A DNA stretch of 64,000 nt from an uncultured Chloroflexia bacterium (GCA_963817265.1 CAWFNU010000017.1:10511-74510); one strand, 5' to 3'; positions 31,987-41,250 are shown, counted from the stretch's first letter. The notes: generated by a model not told the origin, from the sequence alone. Numbers and translations: made by a program.

Positions 31987-32951
<965 letters not shown>

Positions 32952-32968
32952 TTATTACAATGATTATG

Positions 32969-32999
32969 AAGGCGGCAGTGACACTGCCGTCTTTATTTT
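32969..32999 (+). terminator. rho-independent terminator after trxB
   Basis: Stem aaggcggcag / ctgccgtctt (one mismatch), loop tgaca, tail tatttt. Confidence 0.65.
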
Positions 33000-33098
33000 G
33001 TTAAGATATTTATATGATAAGTGTGTGACAAAGGGTACTATCAGTTATAAGGTTTATTTTGTAGTATAACTCTAATAATCCAAGCCTAAGGAGGATCT

Positions 33099-34038
<940 letters not shown>

Positions 34039-34076
34039 CGTCTGCTGCAGGACTATTTCGCAGCGACACCCAGAAA

Positions 34077-35392
34077 ATGGAGGCTAAAATGATTCTGCAC
34101 GAGAAACTCTCAGCTCAACTTCCCGCCTGGCGGGAACGTGTCAAGACACTTGTCAAGGAACATGGCGATAAAGTCATTGACCAGGTGACCATCGGCCAGG
34201 TATACGGCGGGATGCGCGACATCAAGTCCATGGTGACGGATATCTCATTCGTGGACCCAGCTACCGGGATCAAATTCCGGGGCATGTCCATTCCTGAAGT
34301 GTTGGAGAAACTACCCAAGCCAGATGGAGCAGCCATCCCCTACGTTGGTGGGCTTTTTTATCTCCTGCTCATTGGTGAAATCCCCACCAAGGCCCAGGCC
34401 GAAGAAGTGGAAGCTGAATGGGCGAAACGATCGCCCATCCCAGCCCATGTCTTTACGATGCTGCGGGCCATGCCCAAGAGATACGCACCCGATGGTGTTG
34501 TTCTCGCAGGCGGTGCTGGCATTACAGAGTGGTTCGAAGTTTAACAAGGCCTATCATGCTGGCGTCAAGAAAGATATGTACTGGGAATCGACCCTGGAAG
34601 ATGCTCTCGACCTGACCGCCAAATTACCAACCATTGCGGCATTCATCTACCGATTGAAATATGGTGACGGCAAGAGAACCCAAATACGATCCAAAACTGG
34701 ATTATGGCGCCAACTTTGCCAAGATGCTGGGCGTAAAGGATCAGAAGGGTTATGCAGAACTCTCCCGTCTGTACTTCATCCTGCATTCAGACCATGAGTC
34801 TGGCAATGTCAGCGCCCACACCACGCACCTGGTTGGTTCAGCACTCTCGGATGCATATTATGCCTTCTCAGCCGGTCTCAACGGCTTGGCTGGACCGTTA
34901 CACGGTCTTGCCAACCAGGAGTGCCTGGGCTGGTTGATCGACGTGCGCGATAAGTTTGGCGGCGTTCCACCCCGCGAAGATCTGTACAAGTTTGCCTGGG
35001 ATACACTAAATGGTGGCAAAGTCATCCCCGGTTACGGGCACGCAGTCCTGCGCGTCACCGATCCGCGCTTCACCGCACAACTGGAATTTGCCAAAGCACG
35101 CTTCCCGGAAGATACACTCATCCGGCTGGCGGAACTGGTCTATGATGTGGTTCCGGCGGTGCTCAAGGAACAAGGCAAAGCCAAGAATCCAGCTCCCAAT
35201 GTGGATGCCATCTCCGGCACGCTGCAGTATTATTATGGCGTCCGCGAGTTTGACTTCTACACGGTGTTATTCGGAGTTGGACGTGCCCTGGGTGTGATGC
35301 CCAACCTGGTTTGGGCGCGGGCTTTGGGTCAACCCATCGAGCGACCCAAGTCCCTGACGACGGCGATGCTGGAAGAATTGGCAAAGAAGTAA
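34077..35392 (+). pseudogene. gltA: citrate synthase (type I, eukaryote-like), two frameshifts (~34470, ~34670)
   Basis: Pieces lie in track ORFs 34077..34544, 34324..34797 and 34661..35392. Motifs are [37 protein letters not shown] and NVD. Confidence 0.92.
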
Positions 35393-35450
35393 GTCAGCTG
35401 ATTTTCACGCTTAGGTAGCAGATGCATAGGTTGGAATTGATTCGAAAAAA

Positions 35451-35490
35451 GCTTCCGAAATCGTCATGATTTCGGAAGCATTTCTGTTAT
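35451..35490. terminator. bidirectional terminator between gltA (+) and mgsA (-)
   Basis: 12-bp stem gcttccgaaatc / gatttcggaagc with a 5-nt loop, an A6 run upstream and atttctgttatt downstream. Confidence 0.75.
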
Positions 35491-35504
35491 TAAAGATATA
35501 GATG

Positions 35505-35991
35505 TCAATAAATGTGAATTCTATTTCGTTCAATTAATCCATCGGATCGACGGTTGGCGGCATATCTTTCCAGATCCGGAGTAGGATGCTCATACTCCTC
35601 CCCCATCAAGGGGAGAGGAAATAATGAAATCCGCAGTGGACCGGTTGCAGGCAGTGGGGATGTTGTAGAGCACAGCCAGGCGCAGCAGAGCCTTGATATC
35701 GGGATCATGGGGTTGAGGTTCAAGGGCGTCCCAGAAGAAAATCAGCATATCAATCGTATCCTCGGCGATAGCAGCGCCGGTTTGCTGGTCACCTCCCAGG
35801 GGACCGGAAAAGAAGCGGGTGATCGGGAGATCCAGTTCCCTGCGAGAACAGGTCGCCGGTCGTCCCTGTGGCAAAAAGAAATGGCGTGATAATGTCTCGC
35901 GGTTGAAGCAAGCCCAGTCTAGCAGTTCGGCTTTTTTATTGTCGTGAGCCACCAGGGCAATGCGTTTTCTTTCAGCAATTACTTTCATCAT
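35505..35991 (-). pseudogene. mgsA: methylglyoxal synthase, at least 3 frameshifts (two of them mutually compensating)
   Basis: Track ORF 35590..35991 gives IALVAHDNKK..SGPLGGDQQ..IDMLIFFWD..PHDPDIKALLRLAVLYNIP. The expected ATGTTG motif appears only in an alternative frame (FATGTTGDLFS, ~35839-35877). The C-terminus continues in track ORF 35505..35723 (..SSPLMGEEYEHPTPDLERY..). Confidence 0.88.
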
Positions 35992-36069
35992 CGAGCCTCC
36001 TTTTAAGACTTTATGGCGCGCGTGGCGATGTAAGCCGGGTGATATTTACTGAGAGGTGAATCTGGGCAA

Positions 36070-36788
36070 TCATCTTCGTAAAAACCGGTGATGGACAAAC
36101 CCGGCATCGGTTTGACCAGCGATCAGATCTGTGAGGCTATGACCAAATTCGAGTGGAATGCCTTCTTCGATACAGATGTCCAATTCTTCCGGTTCCATGT
36201 CTTTCAGGTCGGAATACGGAATGGCGTATCTTACCTGCAAAGCTTTCTGTTCGTCTGCATGCGTTCCAAACATGTAATAGACCGGGTTGGCAAAACCAGC
36301 CAGCAGCAACGCCGCCATGCCGAAGGACGCGAAAGGCTTCCTGCCAGACCGGGCGAACTTCGGGACAGAAGACATTGGAGACCGGATGGAAGACCAGGTC
36401 GAAGGTTTCGTCCGAAAAAGCAGACAGGTCGCGCATGTCCCCTTCGACTGTGCGGATTTTCAATCCTTCACGAGCGGCCACCTGGCGGTCACGCTCCAAT
36501 TGCGCGGGAGAATTGTCAAAGATGGTGACATTGGCTCCAAGCGCAGCGAATACCGGACCCTGTTGCCCACCTCCACATGCCAAGACCAAGCAGGTCCAGA
36601 CCCCTGGAAAGGTGGGAACCAATCGCTTGGCACGGGTTTGGTTTCGGTCAACAAGACGGAGAAATCCCCTACCGGGCTGCAGCGATGGTTTGCGGATCCA
36701 CCGGGATGGTAAATTTATTGTTTTTATCCACCTGCCGGTTCCAAGCATAGCGATTGTAATCGCGGACATTGAGGGTTGGTTTGGGCAT
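36070..36788 (-). pseudogene. class I SAM-dependent methyltransferase, at least 3 frameshifts
   Basis: Own translation of the N-terminus gives MPKPTLNVRDYNRYAWNRQVDKNNKFTIPVDPQTIAAAR (GGAG RBS). Track ORFs 36460..36654, 36137..36820 (motif I VLACGGGQQGPVFAALGANVTIFDNS; DLVFHPVSNVF) and 36070..36375 (LLLAGFANPVYYMF..) continue it. Confidence 0.75.
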
Positions 36789-36871
36789 AATTTTCTCCGG
36801 TGGATATTATACACCGGCAAAAAATCCCCCGCGAGGGAACCCGCGGGGAATGGTTTTCTGAATTCAAAGTG

Positions 36872-38023
36872 TTATTTTGTTGGTGTGGCGACTGGTCCAG
36901 CACCGCTCCAACCAAAGACCCGCATTACAGAAGCTGCCCCGGCAGTTGACCAGATTGGATTTCCCTGATCATCGGTACCTGTCTGGCGAACGGCGACCAC
37001 CCACCAACGCATGATTGGGAATTGTTGTCCTGCGGTCGGAAGGTTACCGGGACGATGAATTTGGTATCGGTAACGTATTCGAGTCAAGTTTCGTCCGGTA
37101 CCACCGGTGACGACTTCCACAATTACCTGATAGCGTTCATTATCACGCAGAGCACCCACCGAAGCCCATTGCAGGGTCACAGTGTCGGTCGCAAGGGTAA
37201 ACGTATCACCGTTGGCGGGCAGAAGCAGGTTGGGGGCCGGATAAGGAGGCGGTGTGGTTGGTGTGGGTGAGGGACCGGCGTGGCAGCACGCATGCACAAG
37301 CGGAATGATCAACTGGGTATCGGTAAAGACATTATCTGTGCTCAACCCGTTCCAATCTTTGATGGCTTGCATCGAAACGCCATAACTAGTGGCAATCGTG
37401 CTAAGAGTGTCGTTGGCCTGGACAGTATAGTAGCAGTCTGGCAGGCAGCGCGGGTTGCAGCAGCCGGATTCCAGGGTCGCGGTAGGGTGGCGGTGGAGGT
37501 GTGGGCGTTGGACGTGGCACCAGGATGGTTTGTCCGACTTGCAGATCAGTGCAGTTGCTGTTCAGGTTATTTAAACTGACAATGGCTGGCACGGAGGAAC
37601 CAATACAAGCTGGCAATGGAAATGCACGAATCTCCCGCCTTGACAATATATTCATCGGCGGTTCAGGGGTAAGGGTGGGAGTCTCGGTTGGGATAAGAGT
37701 CTCAGTCGGTGTGGGTGTGATCGTGACCGTATCAGTGGGGCTGGGAACAGGCGGTACTATCCGGGAGCTTTCCGGTGCCTTTCAATGTGACGAACAAGAG
37801 CCAGTGCACCAACAACCAGAAAGATTGCCAGCAAGCCCAGCGCTACCGGCAGGCTCAAAGTCACTTCCGGCATACGTGCCCCCTGGACAGTTTTTTCAGA
37901 TTTTGCTTTTTGTTTGGGAGTGGCGCTGAATTCGGTGCCGCATACAACACAGCGAGTGGCATTTTCGGCCAGCCGCGTACCACAGGTGGGGCAGAGTTTG
38001 GTAGGGGTTGTTTCAGGACTCAT
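36872..38023 (-). pseudogene. zinc-ribbon / TM / tandem LysM protein with a C-terminal beta-rich domain, at least 3 frameshifts
   Basis: MSPETTPTKLCPTCGTRLAENATRCVVCG plus a TM helix (LPVALGLLAIFLVVGALAL) in track ORF 37757..38284. LysM-like segments are ..VPAIVSLNNLNSNCTDLQVGQTILVP (37401..37655) and ..YYTVQANDTLSTIATSYGVSMQAIKDWNGLSTDNVFTDTQLIIP (own translation plus 36872..37372). P/T linkers separate the modules. Confidence 0.7.
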
Positions 38024-38170
38024 AGTTCGGGGATTATACCATGAGGAGAATAATCGTGACAAAAGGAGATTATCCGACCATTGCGCATAGGAATATTTGG
38101 AAAAATGTATGTTCATCAATATGTCCAAGCTATAAGCAATGAGAAAGGATCGAGTTTCGTGTGCGTTATA

Positions 38171-39076
38171 ATGTCTCACGTCATGGAGTGACAACTTTGC
38201 TCTATATAAAACCATGCTACTAATTCGCCGGTTCGAAGAACGATTGCTGTCGGAATTCTCGACCGGCAAATTGGTTGGCACCACCCATGCCTATATCGGC
38301 CAGGAAGCAGATGCGGCAGGGATTTTTTCCGTTACAGATGCCAGATGATGTTGTTTTCAGCAACCACCGCTGTCACGGTCACTTTCTGGCTTACGGGGGG
38401 GACCCATATCTCTGGCAGCCGAACTGATGGGAAAAGCAACCGGCCTGGTGGGTGGAAGGGGTGGCAGCCAGCATATCCATTGGCGGAATTTCTACTCGAA
38501 CGGAATCCAGGGTGGAATCAACTCCAGTCGCAACAGGGATGGCGCTTGCTGAGAAAGTCCGCGAAACCGGCAAGATCGTTCTTGTTTTCATCGGTGATGG
38601 AACACTTGGAGAAGGGTACTCTTTATGAGAGCCTGAACATTGCATCACTGTGGAAACTTCCCATCTTTTCGTGCTCGAGGATAATCATTATGCCCAAACA
38701 ACACCGGTCGAAAAAGGTGTGGCTGGTTCCATGTCAGGACGATTTACAGCATTCGGGATTCCAGTCTGGGAACGCGAGTCAACTGACGTCTTGGAAATTC
38801 AATCTGCAGCTTACGAAAGAGTGAATTCGGTCCGCTCAGGAGCTGGACCTGCGAGCTTAATATTGCACACGTATCGTTTCTCTGCCCACAGCAAGGGTGA
38901 CGATCCGCGATCACCCGAGGAACTTGACCGCATTCGCAAGTTCGATCCTTTAAAGTCCAAAGACCACGACTGACGGCTGAAGAGCGCAATAAGCAGAAAC
39001 CGAAGTAACCGACGTAATTAATGATGCCTTTAATCGGGCAGATGCTGATCCCATTCCTCGGTTGGAAATCCGACCC
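38171..39076 (+). pseudogene. TPP-dependent 2-oxoacid (pyruvate/acetoin-type) dehydrogenase E1 alpha subunit, heavily frameshifted; boundaries approximate
   Basis: Hand-stitched across frames: MLLIRRFEERLLSEFSTGKLVGTTHAYIGQEADAAG..DDVVFSNHRCHGHFLAYGGDP..AELMGKATGLVGGRGGSQH..VLVFIGDGTLGEG..YESLNIASLWKLPILFVLEDNHYAQTTP..HTYRFSAHSKGDDPRSPEEL. Only fragments appear in the track (38345..38824, 38650..38973). Confidence 0.75.
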
Positions 39077-40064
39077 ATGCCACAGTGTTGGATCGTCTCT
39101 AAACTACGCCCTACATCACTCCATGGAGAATGATGAGCGTGTCTTATTATCGGAGAAGACATCCTCGATCCATACGGAGGTGCATTCAAGGTGACGCGCG
39201 GACTGTCCACGAAATATCCCGACCGCGTTCTAACCACTCCCATCTCTGAAGCTGCAATTGTCGGCGTGGCGACTGGCATGGCATTGCGTGGTTTGCTCCC
39301 GGTGGTCGAGATCATGTTCGGTGATTTCATGACTCTGATAGCGATCAGTTGGTCAACCATGCCTCCAAGTTCCGCTGGATGTATAACAATCAGGTGCGCG
39401 TTCCAATCGTGGTTCGTACCCCGATGGGTGGAAGGCGAGGTTATGGTCCAACCCACAGCCAATCACTGGAAAAGATGTTCCTGGGTGTACCCGGCTTGAA
39501 AGTAGTTGCTCCCAATACCCTGGGCGATCCAGCCGAAATGCTTGCTGCTGCCATTGCTGATGACGATCCGGTGTTATTTATTGAGCACAAATTATTGTAT
39601 TTGCGCCATTTCTGGAGATGGGAAAAGGGGATCTGATTGATTTTCAAGTGGAACAAACCGGGGAACCATATCCAACTATTCGATTCGAACTACGACCGAT
39701 TCCCGATTGACCATTGCCTGCTACGGTTACAATTTCGAATTAGCCCGAGCAGCTGCACTTGACTTATGATGGAACATGAGATTTTTTCGGAGATCATCTT
39801 TTCTCTCAACTCAGTCCATTTGTAATGGAACCACTATTCTCATCTTTGGAAAGGACGGGGAAATTGCTCACCATCGAAGAAGGGACATTATCTCTTGGCT
39901 GGGGGGCAGAAGTGGCGGCTCGTGCAGTCGAAAGGATGACCGGATTCCAAATCCGGCGGGTGGCTGCGCTCGATTTACCGATTGCCAACGCGAAAAGTTT
40001 GGAAGACATCATCCTTCCTTCAGTGCAGGGTATTGTAAATGCGGCTCTTACTTTTACTTCATAA
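39077..40064 (+). pseudogene. 2-oxoacid dehydrogenase E1 beta subunit, frameshifted; start approximate
   Basis: ..[77 protein letters not shown].. (39191..39499), [68 protein letters not shown] (39349..39636), and the C-terminal domain ..TIEEGTLSLGWGAEVAARAVE.. (39825..40064). Confidence 0.8.
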
Positions 40065-40099
40065 TCATATGATTTACATCGTGTTGCTTGTGGTGAAAA

Positions 40100-40537
40100 A
40101 TGATCAAATCCGAAATCCTCGTCCCTTTGCTTAATGCCAATGAACCAGAAGCAATGGGTTATGAATTCACATAAATGATAGACAAGCCGTTGAAAAAGGT
40201 ACTCTCTTATTTAGATTGAAACCACCAAGGCATCGTCTGATATCGAAGCGTCGGCATCCGGATTCGTCCTGCTGGCGAAAGAAGGCGATATCCTCGCAGT
40301 GGGAGAACGTTTGGCTGTGATCACAGACGCATAGATGAACGAATCGAATTCAAGAACTTTGAAGAAGGCTCCAAACAATTCGGAAACCTCCGTATTACCA
40401 ATCCCGCTCAAAAACTGGCTGAAGTCCTAGAGATAGACATTACCACACTGCCCACTGACCAATTAGTGACGGAAAAGGTAATTCGACAGTATTCTGGGGA
40501 AAAGGAAACCCTTTCCGCGGATTTTCCCATTTCATAA
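40100..40537 (+). pseudogene. lipoyl(biotinyl)-type domain followed by a peripheral-subunit-binding-like segment (E2 N-terminal half without a catalytic core), frameshifted
   Basis: Own translation gives MIKSEILVPLLNANEPEA.., ..VEKGTLLFRLETTKASSDIEASASGFVLLAKEGDILAVGERLAVITDA (the E-T-T-K-A context of the lipoyl-lysine), then DERIEFKNFEEGSKQFGNLRITNPAQKLAEVLEIDITTLPTDQLVTEKVIRQY. It ends at a TAA (~40535) that is in frame with the next gene. Confidence 0.55.
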
Positions 40538-41183
40538 ACGCCATATATTCTCATTTATGGTGCTGGCGGACATGCCAAGTCTGTAATGGAAATGGTAATA
40601 CAAAAAAAAATGTATACAATTGCTGGGATAATCGATGATGATCATCGCTTACAAGGGGAGCCATGTTCTTGGTATTCCAGTATTAGGAACACGAGCATTC
40701 CTTAGTGCGATAATCGAGCGAGGGTGAATCTGGCTGCCAACGGAGTTGGGGGAATAATCGATATTGGGCTACGTAAAAGTATATTTCAACTCCTGGAAAG
40801 CACAGGATTTTCACTTCCTGAGCTTAACCCATCCAAGAGCAACAGTTGAACCTAGTGCAAATATCGAGGATGGCGTGCAAATCTTTGCAAATGCTTATAT
40901 TGGTTCGGAAGCAACCCTACATTCGTGGTGCATGATTAATACCAACGCAGTAGTGTCTCACGATTGTGTGATCGGTCCATATTCTCATATTGCACCCGGT
41001 GCTTTACTGGCGGGGCATGTCCATATTGGCGAGCGGACCCTTATTGGAATGGGAGTGACAACATCGATTGGAGTAAAAATTGGTTCCGGAGTGCGCATAG
41101 GGAATGGCGCAATTATCCTGGCGGATGTGCCGGATAAAATGGTGGTTCAAGCCGGTCGATATTGGGTTGGGAAAGCAAATTAG
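40538..41183 (+). pseudogene. NeuD/PglD-family hexapeptide-repeat (left-handed beta-helix) acyltransferase, frameshifted; no own start codon visible
   Basis: Own translation right after the TAA gives TPYILIYGAGGHAKSVMEMVIQKK.YTIAGIIDDD..VLGIPVLG (NeuD N-terminal domain). Track ORF 40764..41183 gives the LbH repeats (IEDGVQIFANAYIGSEATLHSWCMINTNAVVSHDCVIGPYSHIAPGALLAGHVHIGERTLIGMGVTTSIGVKIGSGVRIGNGAIILADVP). Confidence 0.7.
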
Positions 41184-41195
41184 AATTATAGAAAT

Positions 41196-41225
41196 AAAAG
41201 TGGTCGTCGATGGACGACCACTTTT
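41196..41225. terminator. bidirectional terminator (perfect 13-bp stem)
   Basis: aaaagtggtcgtc-gatg-gacgaccactttt. The A/T runs on both sides serve the convergent genes 40538..41183 (+) and 41251..42084 (-). Confidence 0.8.
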
Positions 41226-41250
41226 ATTATTTCTTGACTTCTTTGTTAAC

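What the first reader, a model, noticed from the sequence alone, without database searches (positions are those of the whole stretch)
38171..41183. PDH-like E1 alpha/beta followed by a lipoyl + PSBD-like segment that reads straight into a NeuD/PglD-type hexapeptide acyltransferase instead of an E2 catalytic core
Seen in sequence:
- E1 alpha and E1 beta (TPP-dependent 2-oxoacid dehydrogenase type) come first.
- Next is a ~145-aa ORF with a lipoyl-type domain (..LETTKASSDIEA..) and a helix-rich segment resembling a peripheral-subunit-binding domain.
- Its TAA (~40535) is in frame with, and immediately followed by, a NeuD/PglD-family acyltransferase (ILIYGAGGHAK.. plus LbH repeats). That acyltransferase has no ATG, GTG or TTG start of its own.
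- No E3 and no canonical 2-oxoacid-dehydrogenase acyltransferase (CAT-fold) domain is present.
- The unit is bracketed by a divergent promoter region (38.0-38.2 kb) and a perfect terminator (41196).

Established knowledge:
- E2 proteins are built as lipoyl + PSBD + CAT-like core.
- NeuD/PglD enzymes normally N- or O-acylate amino sugars using acyl-CoA.

Inference:
- This may be a hybrid in which an acyl group made by E1 on a lipoyl arm is handed to an LbH transferase. That would acylate an amine or hydroxyl acceptor without CoA.
- The lipoyl carrier and the transferase may be one polypeptide.

Caveat: this is the most indel-dense stretch of the window, so the module may be decayed or simply badly assembled.
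Basis: partly seen in the sequence, partly recalled or inferred. Interest (0 to 1): 0.7.

Follow-up and report, generated by a model that had tools for sequence, protein, structure and literature searches.

The report
Lipoyl-arm acyltransferase replacing the E2 core
A pyruvate-dehydrogenase-like E1 enzyme is paired with one protein that joins a lipoyl swinging arm to a sugar-type (NeuD/PglD) acyltransferase instead of a normal E2 core; this is a widespread family I found no paper on, it probably acylates amino sugars straight from 2-oxoacids, and the copy in this window is garbled by local sequencing errors.

Summary
The domain content is real: E1 alpha, E1 beta, then lipoyl domain + short PSBD-like segment + PglD_N + hexapeptide (LbH) acyltransferase, ending at a 16-bp hairpin.

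The window copy carries about 20 one-base indels plus the TAA at 40535. The same indel-dense block (32.0-40.83 kb) also breaks citrate synthase and malate dehydrogenase, and the flanks are clean. This points to bad local assembly, not module decay.

Intact homologues settle the fusion. At least 120 Anaerolineales proteins of 360-385 aa read through the TAA position (Asn/Asp). At least 129 clusters at 50% identity from several phyla share the architecture, with the lipoyl Lys invariant (129/129) and the PerB-His141-equivalent His in 128/129.

E1 lies directly upstream in about 90% of loci: split in Anaerolineales, fused alpha-beta elsewhere. Outside Anaerolineales the pair sits in amino-sugar and nonulosonic-acid clusters (DegT, NeuB, PglF-like, PglC-like). 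Two loci also encode a lipoate ligase and an E3 in the same operon. No locus examined has a CAT-fold E2 core.

Best reading: E1 loads an acyl group on the lipoyl arm and the LbH domain transfers it to an NDP-amino sugar. CoA-independence, the acyl group and the Anaerolineales acceptor are untested. No description was found in ten literature searches or in NCBIfam.

The parts
38161..39070 (+). E1 alpha subunit (TPP-binding, E1_dh); about 7-8 one-base frameshifts in this copy
   Evidence: Pfam E1_dh 3.7e-48. A frameshift-aware alignment to the intact L002 E1 alpha matches 230/296 residues, with shifts at 38337, 38410, 38520, 38617, 38663, 38953 and 38991. The possible GTG start at 38161 comes from the L001 alignment.
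39078..40064 (+). E1 beta subunit (Transket_pyr + Transketolase_C); 6-7 one-base frameshifts
   Evidence: Pfam Transket_pyr 1e-34 and Transketolase_C 1.4e-07. Alignment to L002 E1 beta matches 235/327 residues, with shifts at 39144, 39341, 39601, 39675, 39761 and 39799. The ORF piece ends at 40064.
40100..41183 (+). Single gene for the lipoyl + PSBD-like + PglD_N + LbH acyltransferase fusion (about 361 aa when repaired)
   Evidence: 87% identical to intact P0001 (370 aa) over 100% of its length. The DNA alignment to the P0001 contig shows 9 indel sites between 40.16 and 40.83 kb and none after. The repaired protein passes TIGR03570 (181.4 vs cutoff 160.8).
40100..40330 (+). Lipoyl domain; lipoyl-lysine codon at 40227-40229 in the motif IETTKAS
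   Evidence: Pfam Biotin_lipoyl is above cutoff. The Lys is invariant in 129/129 diverse fusions, motif E-[TS]-[ST]-K. The predicted fold matches solved lipoyl domains, e.g. 3crk_C with TM 0.79.
40388..40492 (+). PSBD-like two-helix segment (LRITNPAQKLAEVLEIDITTLPTDQLVTEKVIRQY), with a loop 3 residues shorter than canonical PSBDs
   Evidence: The family profile's two best PDB hits are E2 PSBDs (2eq8_C E 0.0015, 1w4i E 0.0032). 13 of 27 members hit Pfam E3_binding. In P0095 the match to the acetoin-dehydrogenase E2 model NF011457 runs through this segment, residues 4-176. The model has helices at 108-116 and 132-141.
40535..40537 (+). In-frame TAA inside the fusion gene; very probably an assembly error
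   Evidence: The window reads TCA TAA ACG CCA where the 91%-identical L093 reads TCA AAT AAG CCA. Homologues have Asn or Asp here. It lies inside the indel-dense stretch.
40541..40790 (+). PglD_N nucleotide-binding-type domain (GAGGHAK, IIDDD motifs)
   Evidence: Pfam PglD_N 1.1e-11. It aligns with the same motifs of PglB-ATD (4m98) and PerB (4ea7).
40830..41180 (+). Left-handed beta-helix acyltransferase domain; catalytic His codon at 40959-40961 (VVSHDC)
   Evidence: Pfam Hexapep 1.6e-19. The PerB H141N and H141A entries align their mutated residue with this His. The His is conserved in 128/129 fusions.
41193..41228 (.). 16-bp perfect hairpin between the fusion gene and the convergent hydrolase gene; terminator-like
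   Evidence: Terminator scan. The first 20 bases of the hairpin are also present at the end of L093.

Best explanation
This is a three-gene module (two genes where E1 alpha and beta are fused) that works like a small 2-oxoacid dehydrogenase complex. Its acyl-transfer core is a NeuD/PglD-type left-handed beta-helix enzyme instead of the CAT-fold E2 domain.

Proposed cycle:
- E1 (TPP) decarboxylates a 2-oxoacid and reductively acylates the lipoyl-lysine of the fusion protein.
- The flexible linker swings the acyl-dihydrolipoyl arm into the LbH active site of the trimer, where it takes the place normally held by acyl-pantetheine.
- The conserved His deprotonates the amine (or hydroxyl) of a nucleotide-sugar-type acceptor bound by the PglD_N domain, and the acyl group is transferred.
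- The dihydrolipoyl arm is re-oxidised by an E3. The PSBD-like segment docks E1 and/or E3. E3 and the lipoate ligase are usually encoded elsewhere.

Shown here:
- The architecture and its conservation.
- Invariance of the lipoyl Lys and the catalytic His.
- The tight E1 linkage.
- Glycan-cluster context outside Anaerolineales.
- Operon-encoded LplA and E3 in two loci.

Inferred:
- Direct transfer without CoA.
- The identity of the acyl group (acetyl from pyruvate, or a rarer group such as glycolyl or propionyl).
- The acceptor in Anaerolineales.

The window's copy is the same gene set seen through a locally error-ridden assembly.
For: - Fusion is real: at least 120 intact homologues with 97-100% coverage (nearly all 99-100%), and at least 129 diverse full-length clusters at 50% identity.
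- Lipoyl Lys 129/129; catalytic His 128/129, equivalent to PerB His141.
- The GxGGHxK and DD motifs of the nucleotide-binding domain are kept.
- E1 is directly upstream in 64-65/72 loci and 39/42 loci. In the seven gene tables the called E1 and fusion genes overlap by 4-41 nt.
- Anaerolineales E1 alpha/beta are closer to these fused E1s (217-290 bits, 35-47% id) than E1 alpha is to any solved E1 (at most 144 bits).
- L086/L087 place the pair among PglF-like, DegT, PglC-like and GT genes.
- L088, L089, L092, L106, L108, L128 and L130 are NeuB-containing nonulosonic-acid clusters.
- 23 of 34 long metagenome loci hold glycan genes.
- L108 and L121 encode E1ab, LplA, the fusion and E3 in one operon.
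- No CAT-fold E2 in any gene table read.
- The linker is disordered and variable in length.
Against: - No biochemical data exist. Transfer from lipoyl directly to an amine by an LbH enzyme has no precedent that I know of.
- The CoA-binding face of the LbH domain looks as conserved as in PerB and PglB, so a CoA relay or plain acyl-CoA use is not excluded.
- In Anaerolineales the operon has no sugar-pathway neighbours. It lies 3-6 kb from citrate synthase and malate dehydrogenase.
- E3 and LplA are absent from the window and from about 170 of 173 loci.
- 6 of 72 Anaerolineales loci lack E1 within 10 kb.
- The PSBD assignment is statistically weak.
Confidence: 0.55

Rival explanations
1. The LbH domain is a non-homologous replacement of the E2 catalytic core in the strict sense. 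It passes the acyl group from the lipoyl arm to CoA, so the module is an unusual pyruvate or 2-oxoacid (or acetoin) dehydrogenase that makes acyl-CoA. This could hold at least in Anaerolineales, where it is a stand-alone operon.
For: - The Anaerolineales operon has no glycan neighbours and lies near citrate synthase and MDH.
- E1 scores best against PDH E1 models.
- LbH enzymes bind CoA, and a thioester exchange with a His base is chemically the same as the E2 reaction (own knowledge).
- There is a precedent for a non-CAT E2: the N-terminus matches the AcoC model NF011457. To my knowledge AcoC carries an alpha/beta-hydrolase domain instead of a CAT core.
Against: - The nucleotide-sugar-binding PglD_N domain and its motifs are retained and invariant.
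- Elsewhere the family is embedded in amino-sugar and nonulosonic-acid clusters, where making acyl-CoA would serve no evident purpose.
- The neighbouring TCA genes are separated from the operon by oppositely oriented, unrelated genes.
Confidence: 0.2
2. The fusion is an ordinary acyl-CoA-dependent NeuD/PglD sugar acetyltransferase. Its lipoyl/PSBD N-terminus is only a docking, regulatory or vestigial module, and the adjacent E1 does something else.
For: - The LbH part passes the TIGR03570 cutoff.
- It aligns end to end with PglB-ATD and PerB, including the CoA-facing C-terminal coils.
- Sources name it a NeuD-family sugar acetyltransferase.
Against: - The lipoyl Lys is invariant in 129/129 sequences that are only about 33% identical overall.
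- E1 is adjacent in about 90% of loci and often overlaps the fusion's start.
- A dedicated lipoate ligase and E3 sit in the operon in L108 and L121.
- A vestigial domain would not keep this.
Confidence: 0.1
3. The window's copy is a truly decayed pseudogene cluster (about 20 frameshifts and a nonsense codon) rather than an assembly artefact.
For: Frameshifts and the TAA are present in the sequence as given. They are concentrated here while the flanks are clean.
Against: - The same indel-dense block also breaks the thioredoxin-reductase-like gene, malate dehydrogenase, citrate synthase, MGS, a methyltransferase and the LysM gene. Simultaneous decay of these housekeeping genes is unlikely.
- Amino-acid identity to relatives stays at 75-97% between the shifts.
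- The block stops abruptly at 40.83 kb inside the gene, and identity to L093 is visibly higher in the indel-free 3' end.
- The syntenic nanopore-style MAG contig L001 also has a frameshifted E1 alpha.
Confidence: 0.1

Closest known systems
E2 (dihydrolipoamide acyltransferase) of 2-oxoacid dehydrogenase complexes
   Same: - N-terminal lipoyl domain with the modified Lys in a beta-hairpin, a flexible linker and a PSBD-like two-helix segment.
- Encoded directly after E1 alpha/beta.
- An oligomeric (here presumably trimeric) acyltransferase at the C-terminus.
- E3 and LplA are in the operon in L108 and L121.
   Different: - The catalytic domain is a PglD_N + left-handed beta-helix, not the CAT-fold 2-oxoacid_dh domain. 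There is no DHRxxDG motif.
- The PSBD loop is 3 residues shorter.
- The lipoyl motif is E-T/S-T/S-K rather than E-T/S-D-K.
- The likely acceptor is an amino sugar, not CoA.
AcoC, the E2 of the acetoin dehydrogenase (acetoin-cleaving) system (NCBIfam NF011457)
   Same: - It is the best-scoring lipoyl-E2 model for the N-terminus. In P0095 the match covers residues 4-176 against profile positions 4-154, i.e. lipoyl domain plus linker/PSBD.
- To my knowledge it is also a case where the lipoyl-PSBD module is joined to a non-CAT catalytic domain (an alpha/beta hydrolase fold). This rests on memory and was not tested here.
   Different: - The C-terminal domain here is LbH, not alpha/beta hydrolase.
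- The score (50 bits) is far below the model cutoff (307).
- The genomic context is glycan biosynthesis, not acetoin catabolism.
NeuD/PglD/PglB-ATD/PerB/VioB nucleotide-sugar N-acetyltransferases (TIGR03570)
   Same: - The C-terminal 200 residues pass the family cutoff.
- They align end to end with 4m98 (2e-36) and 4ea7 (2e-35).
- The catalytic His and the GxGGHxK/DD motifs are conserved.
- In L086/L087 the gene lies with the PglF-, PglE- and PglC-like genes of a bacillosamine-type gene set.
   Different: - Known members are stand-alone proteins of about 200 aa, or fused to a phosphoglycosyl transferase in PglB, and use acetyl-CoA.
- This one carries about 150 N-terminal residues of lipoyl + PSBD-like sequence and is coupled to an E1.
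QncN/QncL/QncM (and SclQ1-4): E1-like plus lipoyl/E2-like enzymes that make a glycolicacyl unit for natural products
   Same: A pyruvate-dehydrogenase/transketolase-type E1 and a lipoyl-bearing acyltransferase are recruited outside central metabolism. They deliver an acyl unit to a biosynthetic acceptor rather than to CoA (PMC6335953, read).
   Different: - There the acyltransferase is described as an E2-type 'acyltransferase catalytic domain' and the acceptor is an ACP.
- Here the transferase is an LbH enzyme and the context is amino-sugar glycans (one locus, L085, is next to an NRPS).

Membership tests
NeuD/PglB/VioB sugar acetyltransferase family (TIGR03570) | Score above the curated family cutoff over the PglD_N + LbH region | tested here: met
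   Repaired window protein 181.4 bits against cutoff 160.8; P0095 172.8; P0003 172.3; L108 176.0.
NeuD/PglB/VioB sugar acetyltransferase family (TIGR03570) | Catalytic histidine of the LbH active site (PerB His141 / PglD His125 position) | tested here: met
   The PerB H141N and H141A PDB sequences place their mutated residue opposite the invariant His of 'SHDC'. The His is present in 128/129 fusions and in the window at 40959-40961.
NeuD/PglB/VioB sugar acetyltransferase family (TIGR03570) | N-terminal nucleotide-binding domain motifs (GxGGHxK, acidic pair after beta-2) | tested here: met
   G161, G163, G164, H165, K167 and D187 are invariant in 42 Anaerolineales sequences. The motifs align with PglB-ATD and PerB. 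The window reads YGAGGHAK and IIDDD.
NeuD/PglB/VioB sugar acetyltransferase family (TIGR03570) | Uses acyl-CoA as the acyl donor | not testable with these tools
   Needs an enzyme assay. The fused lipoyl domain and E1 linkage suggest a different donor.
NeuD/PglB/VioB sugar acetyltransferase family (TIGR03570) | Stand-alone two-domain architecture of about 200 aa | tested here: not met
   About 150 extra N-terminal residues (lipoyl + PSBD-like) in all 120 listed hits of 352-387 aa and in at least 129 representative clusters.
E2 component of 2-oxoacid dehydrogenase complexes | Lipoyl domain with conserved lipoyl-lysine | tested here: met
   Pfam Biotin_lipoyl. Best NCBIfam hits for the N-terminus are lipoyl E2s. 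The fold matches solved lipoyl domains. The Lys is invariant. Actual lipoylation was not tested, but LplA is operon-encoded in L108, L121 and L119.
E2 component of 2-oxoacid dehydrogenase complexes | Peripheral-subunit-binding domain | tested here: inconclusive
   The top two PDB hits of the segment profile are PSBDs, but at E 0.0015 and 0.0032. 13 of 27 members hit E3_binding, best 3e-4. The window copy has no hit at 0.01. The loop is shortened by 3 residues.
E2 component of 2-oxoacid dehydrogenase complexes | CAT-fold catalytic domain (2-oxoacid_dh, DHRxxDG) | tested here: not met
   No such Pfam hit on the fusion. No DHRxxDG in the six-frame translation of the window. None in the neighbour gene tables.
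E2 component of 2-oxoacid dehydrogenase complexes | Operon partnership with E1 (and E3) | tested here: met
   E1 is adjacent in 64-65/72 and 39/42 loci. E3 is adjacent only in L108 and L121 and absent from the window.
Heterotetrameric E1 (alpha/beta) of pyruvate dehydrogenase | E1_dh, Transket_pyr and Transketolase_C domains | tested here: met
   for the window; for relatives.
Heterotetrameric E1 (alpha/beta) of pyruvate dehydrogenase | Score above the PDH E1 equivalog/subfamily cutoffs (that is, a true pyruvate dehydrogenase E1) | tested here: not met
   E1 alpha scores 240.9 against cutoff 393.85 (TIGR03182). E1 beta scores 204 against 321 (NF006667). The L108 fused E1 scores 229.5 and 161.8. 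The substrate is therefore open.
AcoC-type acetoin dehydrogenase E2 (NF011457) | Full-length match including the C-terminal alpha/beta-hydrolase part | tested here: not met
   Only profile positions 4-154 of 372 match, at 50 bits against cutoff 307.

The most novel reading that the evidence does not exclude
There may be a widespread, so far unnamed class of mini 2-oxoacid-dehydrogenase complexes. In it a PglD/NeuD-type beta-helix transferase has replaced the E2 core and uses the acyl-dihydrolipoyl arm itself, not acyl-CoA, as acyl donor. This would be a CoA-independent route that installs N-acyl groups (possibly unusual ones such as glycolyl or propionyl) on nucleotide-activated amino sugars and nonulosonic acids directly from 2-oxoacids. 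It would occur in Chloroflexota, Bacteroidota, Gemmatimonadota, Omnitrophota and others.
Probability: 0.5. Interest if true: 0.85.

Novelty: new variant of a known kind. Interest (0 to 1): 0.72.

Why it matters
- Bacterial sugar N-acylation is, as far as I know, thought to draw on acyl-CoA or acyl-ACP. A lipoyl arm feeding an LbH transferase would be a third donor system.
- It would be a second example, after AcoC (from memory), of the E2 catalytic core being swapped for an unrelated fold.
- It would explain why E1-type genes turn up in polysaccharide and nonulosonic-acid clusters.
- It would point to the origin of rare N-acyl decorations on surface glycans.
- It would add a new client to the lipoylation machinery.
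- In practice, thousands of database entries named simply 'NeuD/PglB/VioB family sugar acetyltransferase' or 'hexapeptide transferase' hide this architecture.

Tried and rejected
- Ten full-text literature searches on lipoyl/NeuD/PglD/hexapeptide/E1/nonulosonic/legionaminic/O-antigen combinations (one search failed on a short term). They found no description of the fusion. Only the QncN/L/M analogy was useful.
- A greedy ORF caller on relatives was misled by antisense shadow ORFs ('cluster 8') and merged ORFs. I replaced it with tblastn probes.
- The 1203-aa protein upstream of the fusion in L044/L045 might have been a PFOR. It is SMC.
- The variable Anaerolineales neighbours (DUF4012, TMEM260-like, LGT, sulfotransferase, P-type ATPase, ThyX) gave no functional lead.
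- The conserved 316-aa Pyr_redox_2 gene 6-7 kb upstream is thioredoxin-reductase-like, not an E3.
- Cluster look-up of ten distant representatives returned no names.
- A plasmid tblastn found only plain LbH acetyltransferases and no fusion.
- The whole-model fold search gave only per-domain matches and low global TM, as expected for a flexible multi-domain model.


Full report
**What is in the window**

Three-frame translation of 38.1-41.3 kb shows recognisable protein sequence that keeps hopping between frames. Hand-repaired translations give clear Pfam hits in this order:
- E1_dh (3.7e-48)
- Transket_pyr (1e-34) + Transketolase_C
- Biotin_lipoyl (8.6e-06, above cutoff)
- PglD_N
- Hexapep (1.6e-19)

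A frameshift-aware protein-to-DNA alignment against intact relatives places the genes as follows:
- E1 alpha at about 38161-39070, with 7-8 shifts.
- E1 beta at about 39078-40064, with 6-7 shifts.
- The last gene at 40100-41183, with 6 net shifts and the in-frame TAA at 40535-40537.

So there is no intact '145-aa ORF'. No in-frame ATG/GTG/TTG follows the TAA before the GAGGHAK motif. A 16-bp perfect hairpin follows the gene at 41193-41228. The only strong promoter-like site at 38.0-38.2 kb is on the minus strand. The window has no E3 and no CAT-fold E2 motif.

**Why the frames are broken**

The window is syntenic with a 2.1-Mb MAG contig (L001). I used that contig's proteins as probes.
- Every gene from 32.0 to 41.2 kb is split over two or more frames: thioredoxin-reductase-like, malate dehydrogenase, citrate synthase, MGS, methyltransferase, LysM, E1 alpha, E1 beta and the fusion. 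The exception is one 164-aa hypothetical gene at 36.9-37.4 kb.
- Genes at 30-32 kb and 41.2-50 kb are single-frame, apart from a break near the end of the amylase gene at about 47.35 kb.

A DNA alignment with the 91%-identical short-read contig L093 shows nine indel sites between 40.16 and 40.83 kb. After that there are none, and identity is visibly higher in the indel-free 3' end. The TAA reads TCA TAA ACG CCA against TCA AAT AAG CCA in L093.

Housekeeping genes broken in the same block, with high residue identity between the breaks, point to a locally poor assembly rather than decay of this module. I cannot prove this without reads.

**One polypeptide**

A database search with the repaired lipoyl-to-LbH sequence returned 1767 hits.
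- All 120 listed hits are 352-387 aa, cover 97-100% of the query (nearly all 99-100%) at 63-87% identity, and all but two carry Biotin_lipoyl as well as PglD_N + Hexapep.
- The best, P0001, reads 'DFPISNKPYILIYGAGGHAK' across the window's stop. L001 has Asp at that position.
- In 42 aligned sequences the lipoyl motif E-T-T-K, the PSBD-like core (T107, A110, L113), GxGGHxK and 'SHDC' are invariant.

**The domains**

- The LbH half passes the NeuD/PglB/VioB cutoff (181.4 vs 160.8 for the repaired window protein).
- It aligns end to end with PglB-ATD (4m98, 2e-36) and PerB (4ea7, 2e-35).
- The PerB H141N and H141A entries put their mutated residue opposite the family's invariant His.
- The N-terminus matches lipoyl E2 models best. 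In P0095 the match to the acetoin-dehydrogenase E2 model (AcoC) runs through residues 4-176.
- A 53-residue profile of the inter-domain segment has E2 PSBDs as its two best PDB hits (E 0.0015 and 0.0032), with a 3-residue shorter loop. 13 of 27 members hit Pfam E3_binding. The PSBD call is therefore plausible but weak.
- An AlphaFold model (pLDDT 76) shows a lipoyl beta-barrel, a disordered linker at residues 89-101, two helices, a Rossmann-like domain and a beta-helix. The parts match solved lipoyl domains and PerB/PglB.

**Distribution**

- Pattern scanning of one genome per GTDB species found 95 relatives. Nearly all are Anaerolineales MAGs.
- An exhaustive profile search of 1.84 billion representatives gave at least 129 full-length fusions among the best 150. 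Their median identity to P0003 is 33%.
- The lipoyl Lys is present in 129/129 and the catalytic His in 128/129.
- A search seeded from the largest distant clade returned fusions that their sources label Gemmatimonadetes, Dokdonia, Polaribacter and Omnitrophota.
- One locus with SASP and SLH genes suggests a spore-forming Firmicute. This is my inference.

**Context**

In Anaerolineales:
- E1 alpha and E1 beta lie directly upstream on the same strand in 64-65 of 72 loci with enough sequence.
- All other neighbours are variable or unrelated, and there are no sugar genes.

In the distant clade:
- E1 is a single alpha-beta fusion of 640-685 aa whose called gene overlaps the start of the fusion gene.
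- L086/L087 hold PglF-like dehydratases, DegT, a PglC-like Bac_transf, epimerases and glycosyltransferases.
- L088, L089 and L092 hold NeuB. L088 and L092 add CMP-sugar synthetases, L088 DegT genes and a plain PglD-like gene, and L089 and L092 a UDP-GlcNAc 2-epimerase-type gene.
- L090 and L091 are glycosyltransferase-rich clusters.
- L085 sits next to an NRPS and a TonB receptor.

In 80 further metagenome loci:
- 72 have the lipoyl-Lys motif.
- E1 is directly upstream in 39 of 42.
- 23 of 34 loci of at least 8 kb contain glycan genes, judged by a small probe set.

Two loci are self-contained:
- L108 encodes E1ab, an LplA-type lipoate ligase, the fusion and an E3 in a row, followed by nonulosonic-acid genes. 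The E3's best model is lipoamide_DH at 390 bits.
- L121 encodes E1ab, the fusion, LplA and E3.
- A third locus, L119, has LplA next to the fusion.

Anaerolineales E1 alpha/beta resemble these fused E1s (217-290 bits). E1 alpha scores at most 144 bits against any solved E1. All E1s score below the PDH E1 cutoffs, so the substrate is open.

**Interpretation**

An invariant lipoyl Lys, an invariant transferase His, a near-obligate E1 partner, an occasional operon-encoded LplA and E3, and the absence of any CAT-fold core all point the same way. The module is a 2-oxoacid-dehydrogenase-type machine whose transfer step is done by a PglD-type enzyme.

The glycan-cluster context and the retained nucleotide-binding domain make an NDP-amino sugar the most likely acceptor. 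The most economical mechanism is direct transfer from the acyl-dihydrolipoyl arm, which resembles acyl-pantetheine.

The rivals are not excluded:
- Transfer to CoA, that is a true E2 analogue. This is most plausible for the stand-alone Anaerolineales operon.
- Ordinary acyl-CoA use with a decorative N-terminus.

The acyl group is unknown.

**Comparison and novelty**

The closest known systems are:
- Canonical E2s: same N-terminal half, different core.
- AcoC: similar N-terminus and, from memory, also a non-CAT core.
- PglD/PerB/VioB: same C-terminal half, but stand-alone and acetyl-CoA dependent.
- QncN/L/M: an E1 plus a lipoyl protein delivering a glycolicacyl unit to an ACP (PMC6335953).

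NCBIfam has no model for the fusion, and sources name it a generic NeuD-family acetyltransferase. Ten literature searches found no description. I rate it a new variant of a known kind. The window's own copy adds nothing beyond membership and is degraded by assembly errors.

Noticed in passing
window 32000-40830: A block of about 9 kb dense in one-base indels. It splits the thioredoxin-reductase-like gene, malate dehydrogenase, citrate synthase, MGS, a methyltransferase and the LysM gene as well as the module. Genes at 30-32 kb and 41.2-50 kb are in single frames, apart from a break near the end of the amylase gene (~47.35 kb). The block ends abruptly inside the fusion gene.
   Followed up: partly
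L001/L005 8066-8848: The syntenic 2.1-Mb MAG contig's own E1 alpha (called as 260 aa) has an out-of-frame C-terminus, so it also carries a frameshift. That public record is not a clean reference either.
   Followed up: partly
window 1-64000: G+C falls from about 0.51-0.54 over most of 1-38 kb (one bin, 30-32 kb, is 0.44) to about 0.41-0.49 in 40-64 kb, although synteny with L001 runs straight through 30-50 kb.
   Followed up: no
L121 5948-8026: A 692-aa protein with a citrate-lyase-ligase C-terminal domain sits directly upstream of E1ab-fusion-LplA-E3. This family acetylates a prosthetic-group thiol. It could be an alternative way to load the arm.
   Followed up: no
L085 1-11110: In an uncultured Dokdonia contig the E1ab + fusion pair follows NRPS genes (AMP-binding, PP-binding, Condensation) and a TonB-dependent receptor, not sugar genes. 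The acceptor there may be a peptide or siderophore amine.
   Followed up: no
window 41151-41180; P0003 residues 357-365: The Anaerolineales clade has an invariant C-terminal tail, QAGRYWVGK. It is absent (gapped) in most of the other 129 fusions.
   Followed up: no
window 37400-38284 (minus strand); cluster 3: A divergently transcribed LysM-domain protein is found just upstream of E1 alpha in 44 Anaerolineales loci. This may be plain synteny or a hint of a cell-wall-linked acceptor.
   Followed up: no
L028, L076: Anaerolineales-like copies (64-71% identity) sit on short contigs of bins labelled Candidatus Fraserbacteria and Thermoleophilia. Binning contamination is the likely cause.
   Followed up: no
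L044, L045, L050, L052, L058, L079: Six Anaerolineales species have the fusion gene without any E1 within 10 kb. Their neighbours are SMC, ThyX, a P-type ATPase and an enolase-superfamily gene. E1 may be elsewhere in the genome or lost.
   Followed up: partly
window 40094-40096: A TGA lies where P0001 has Trp in an N-terminal extension (MSILWWK-MIKSE). Most homologues start at MIKSE, so the real start is probably ATG 40100.
   Followed up: partly
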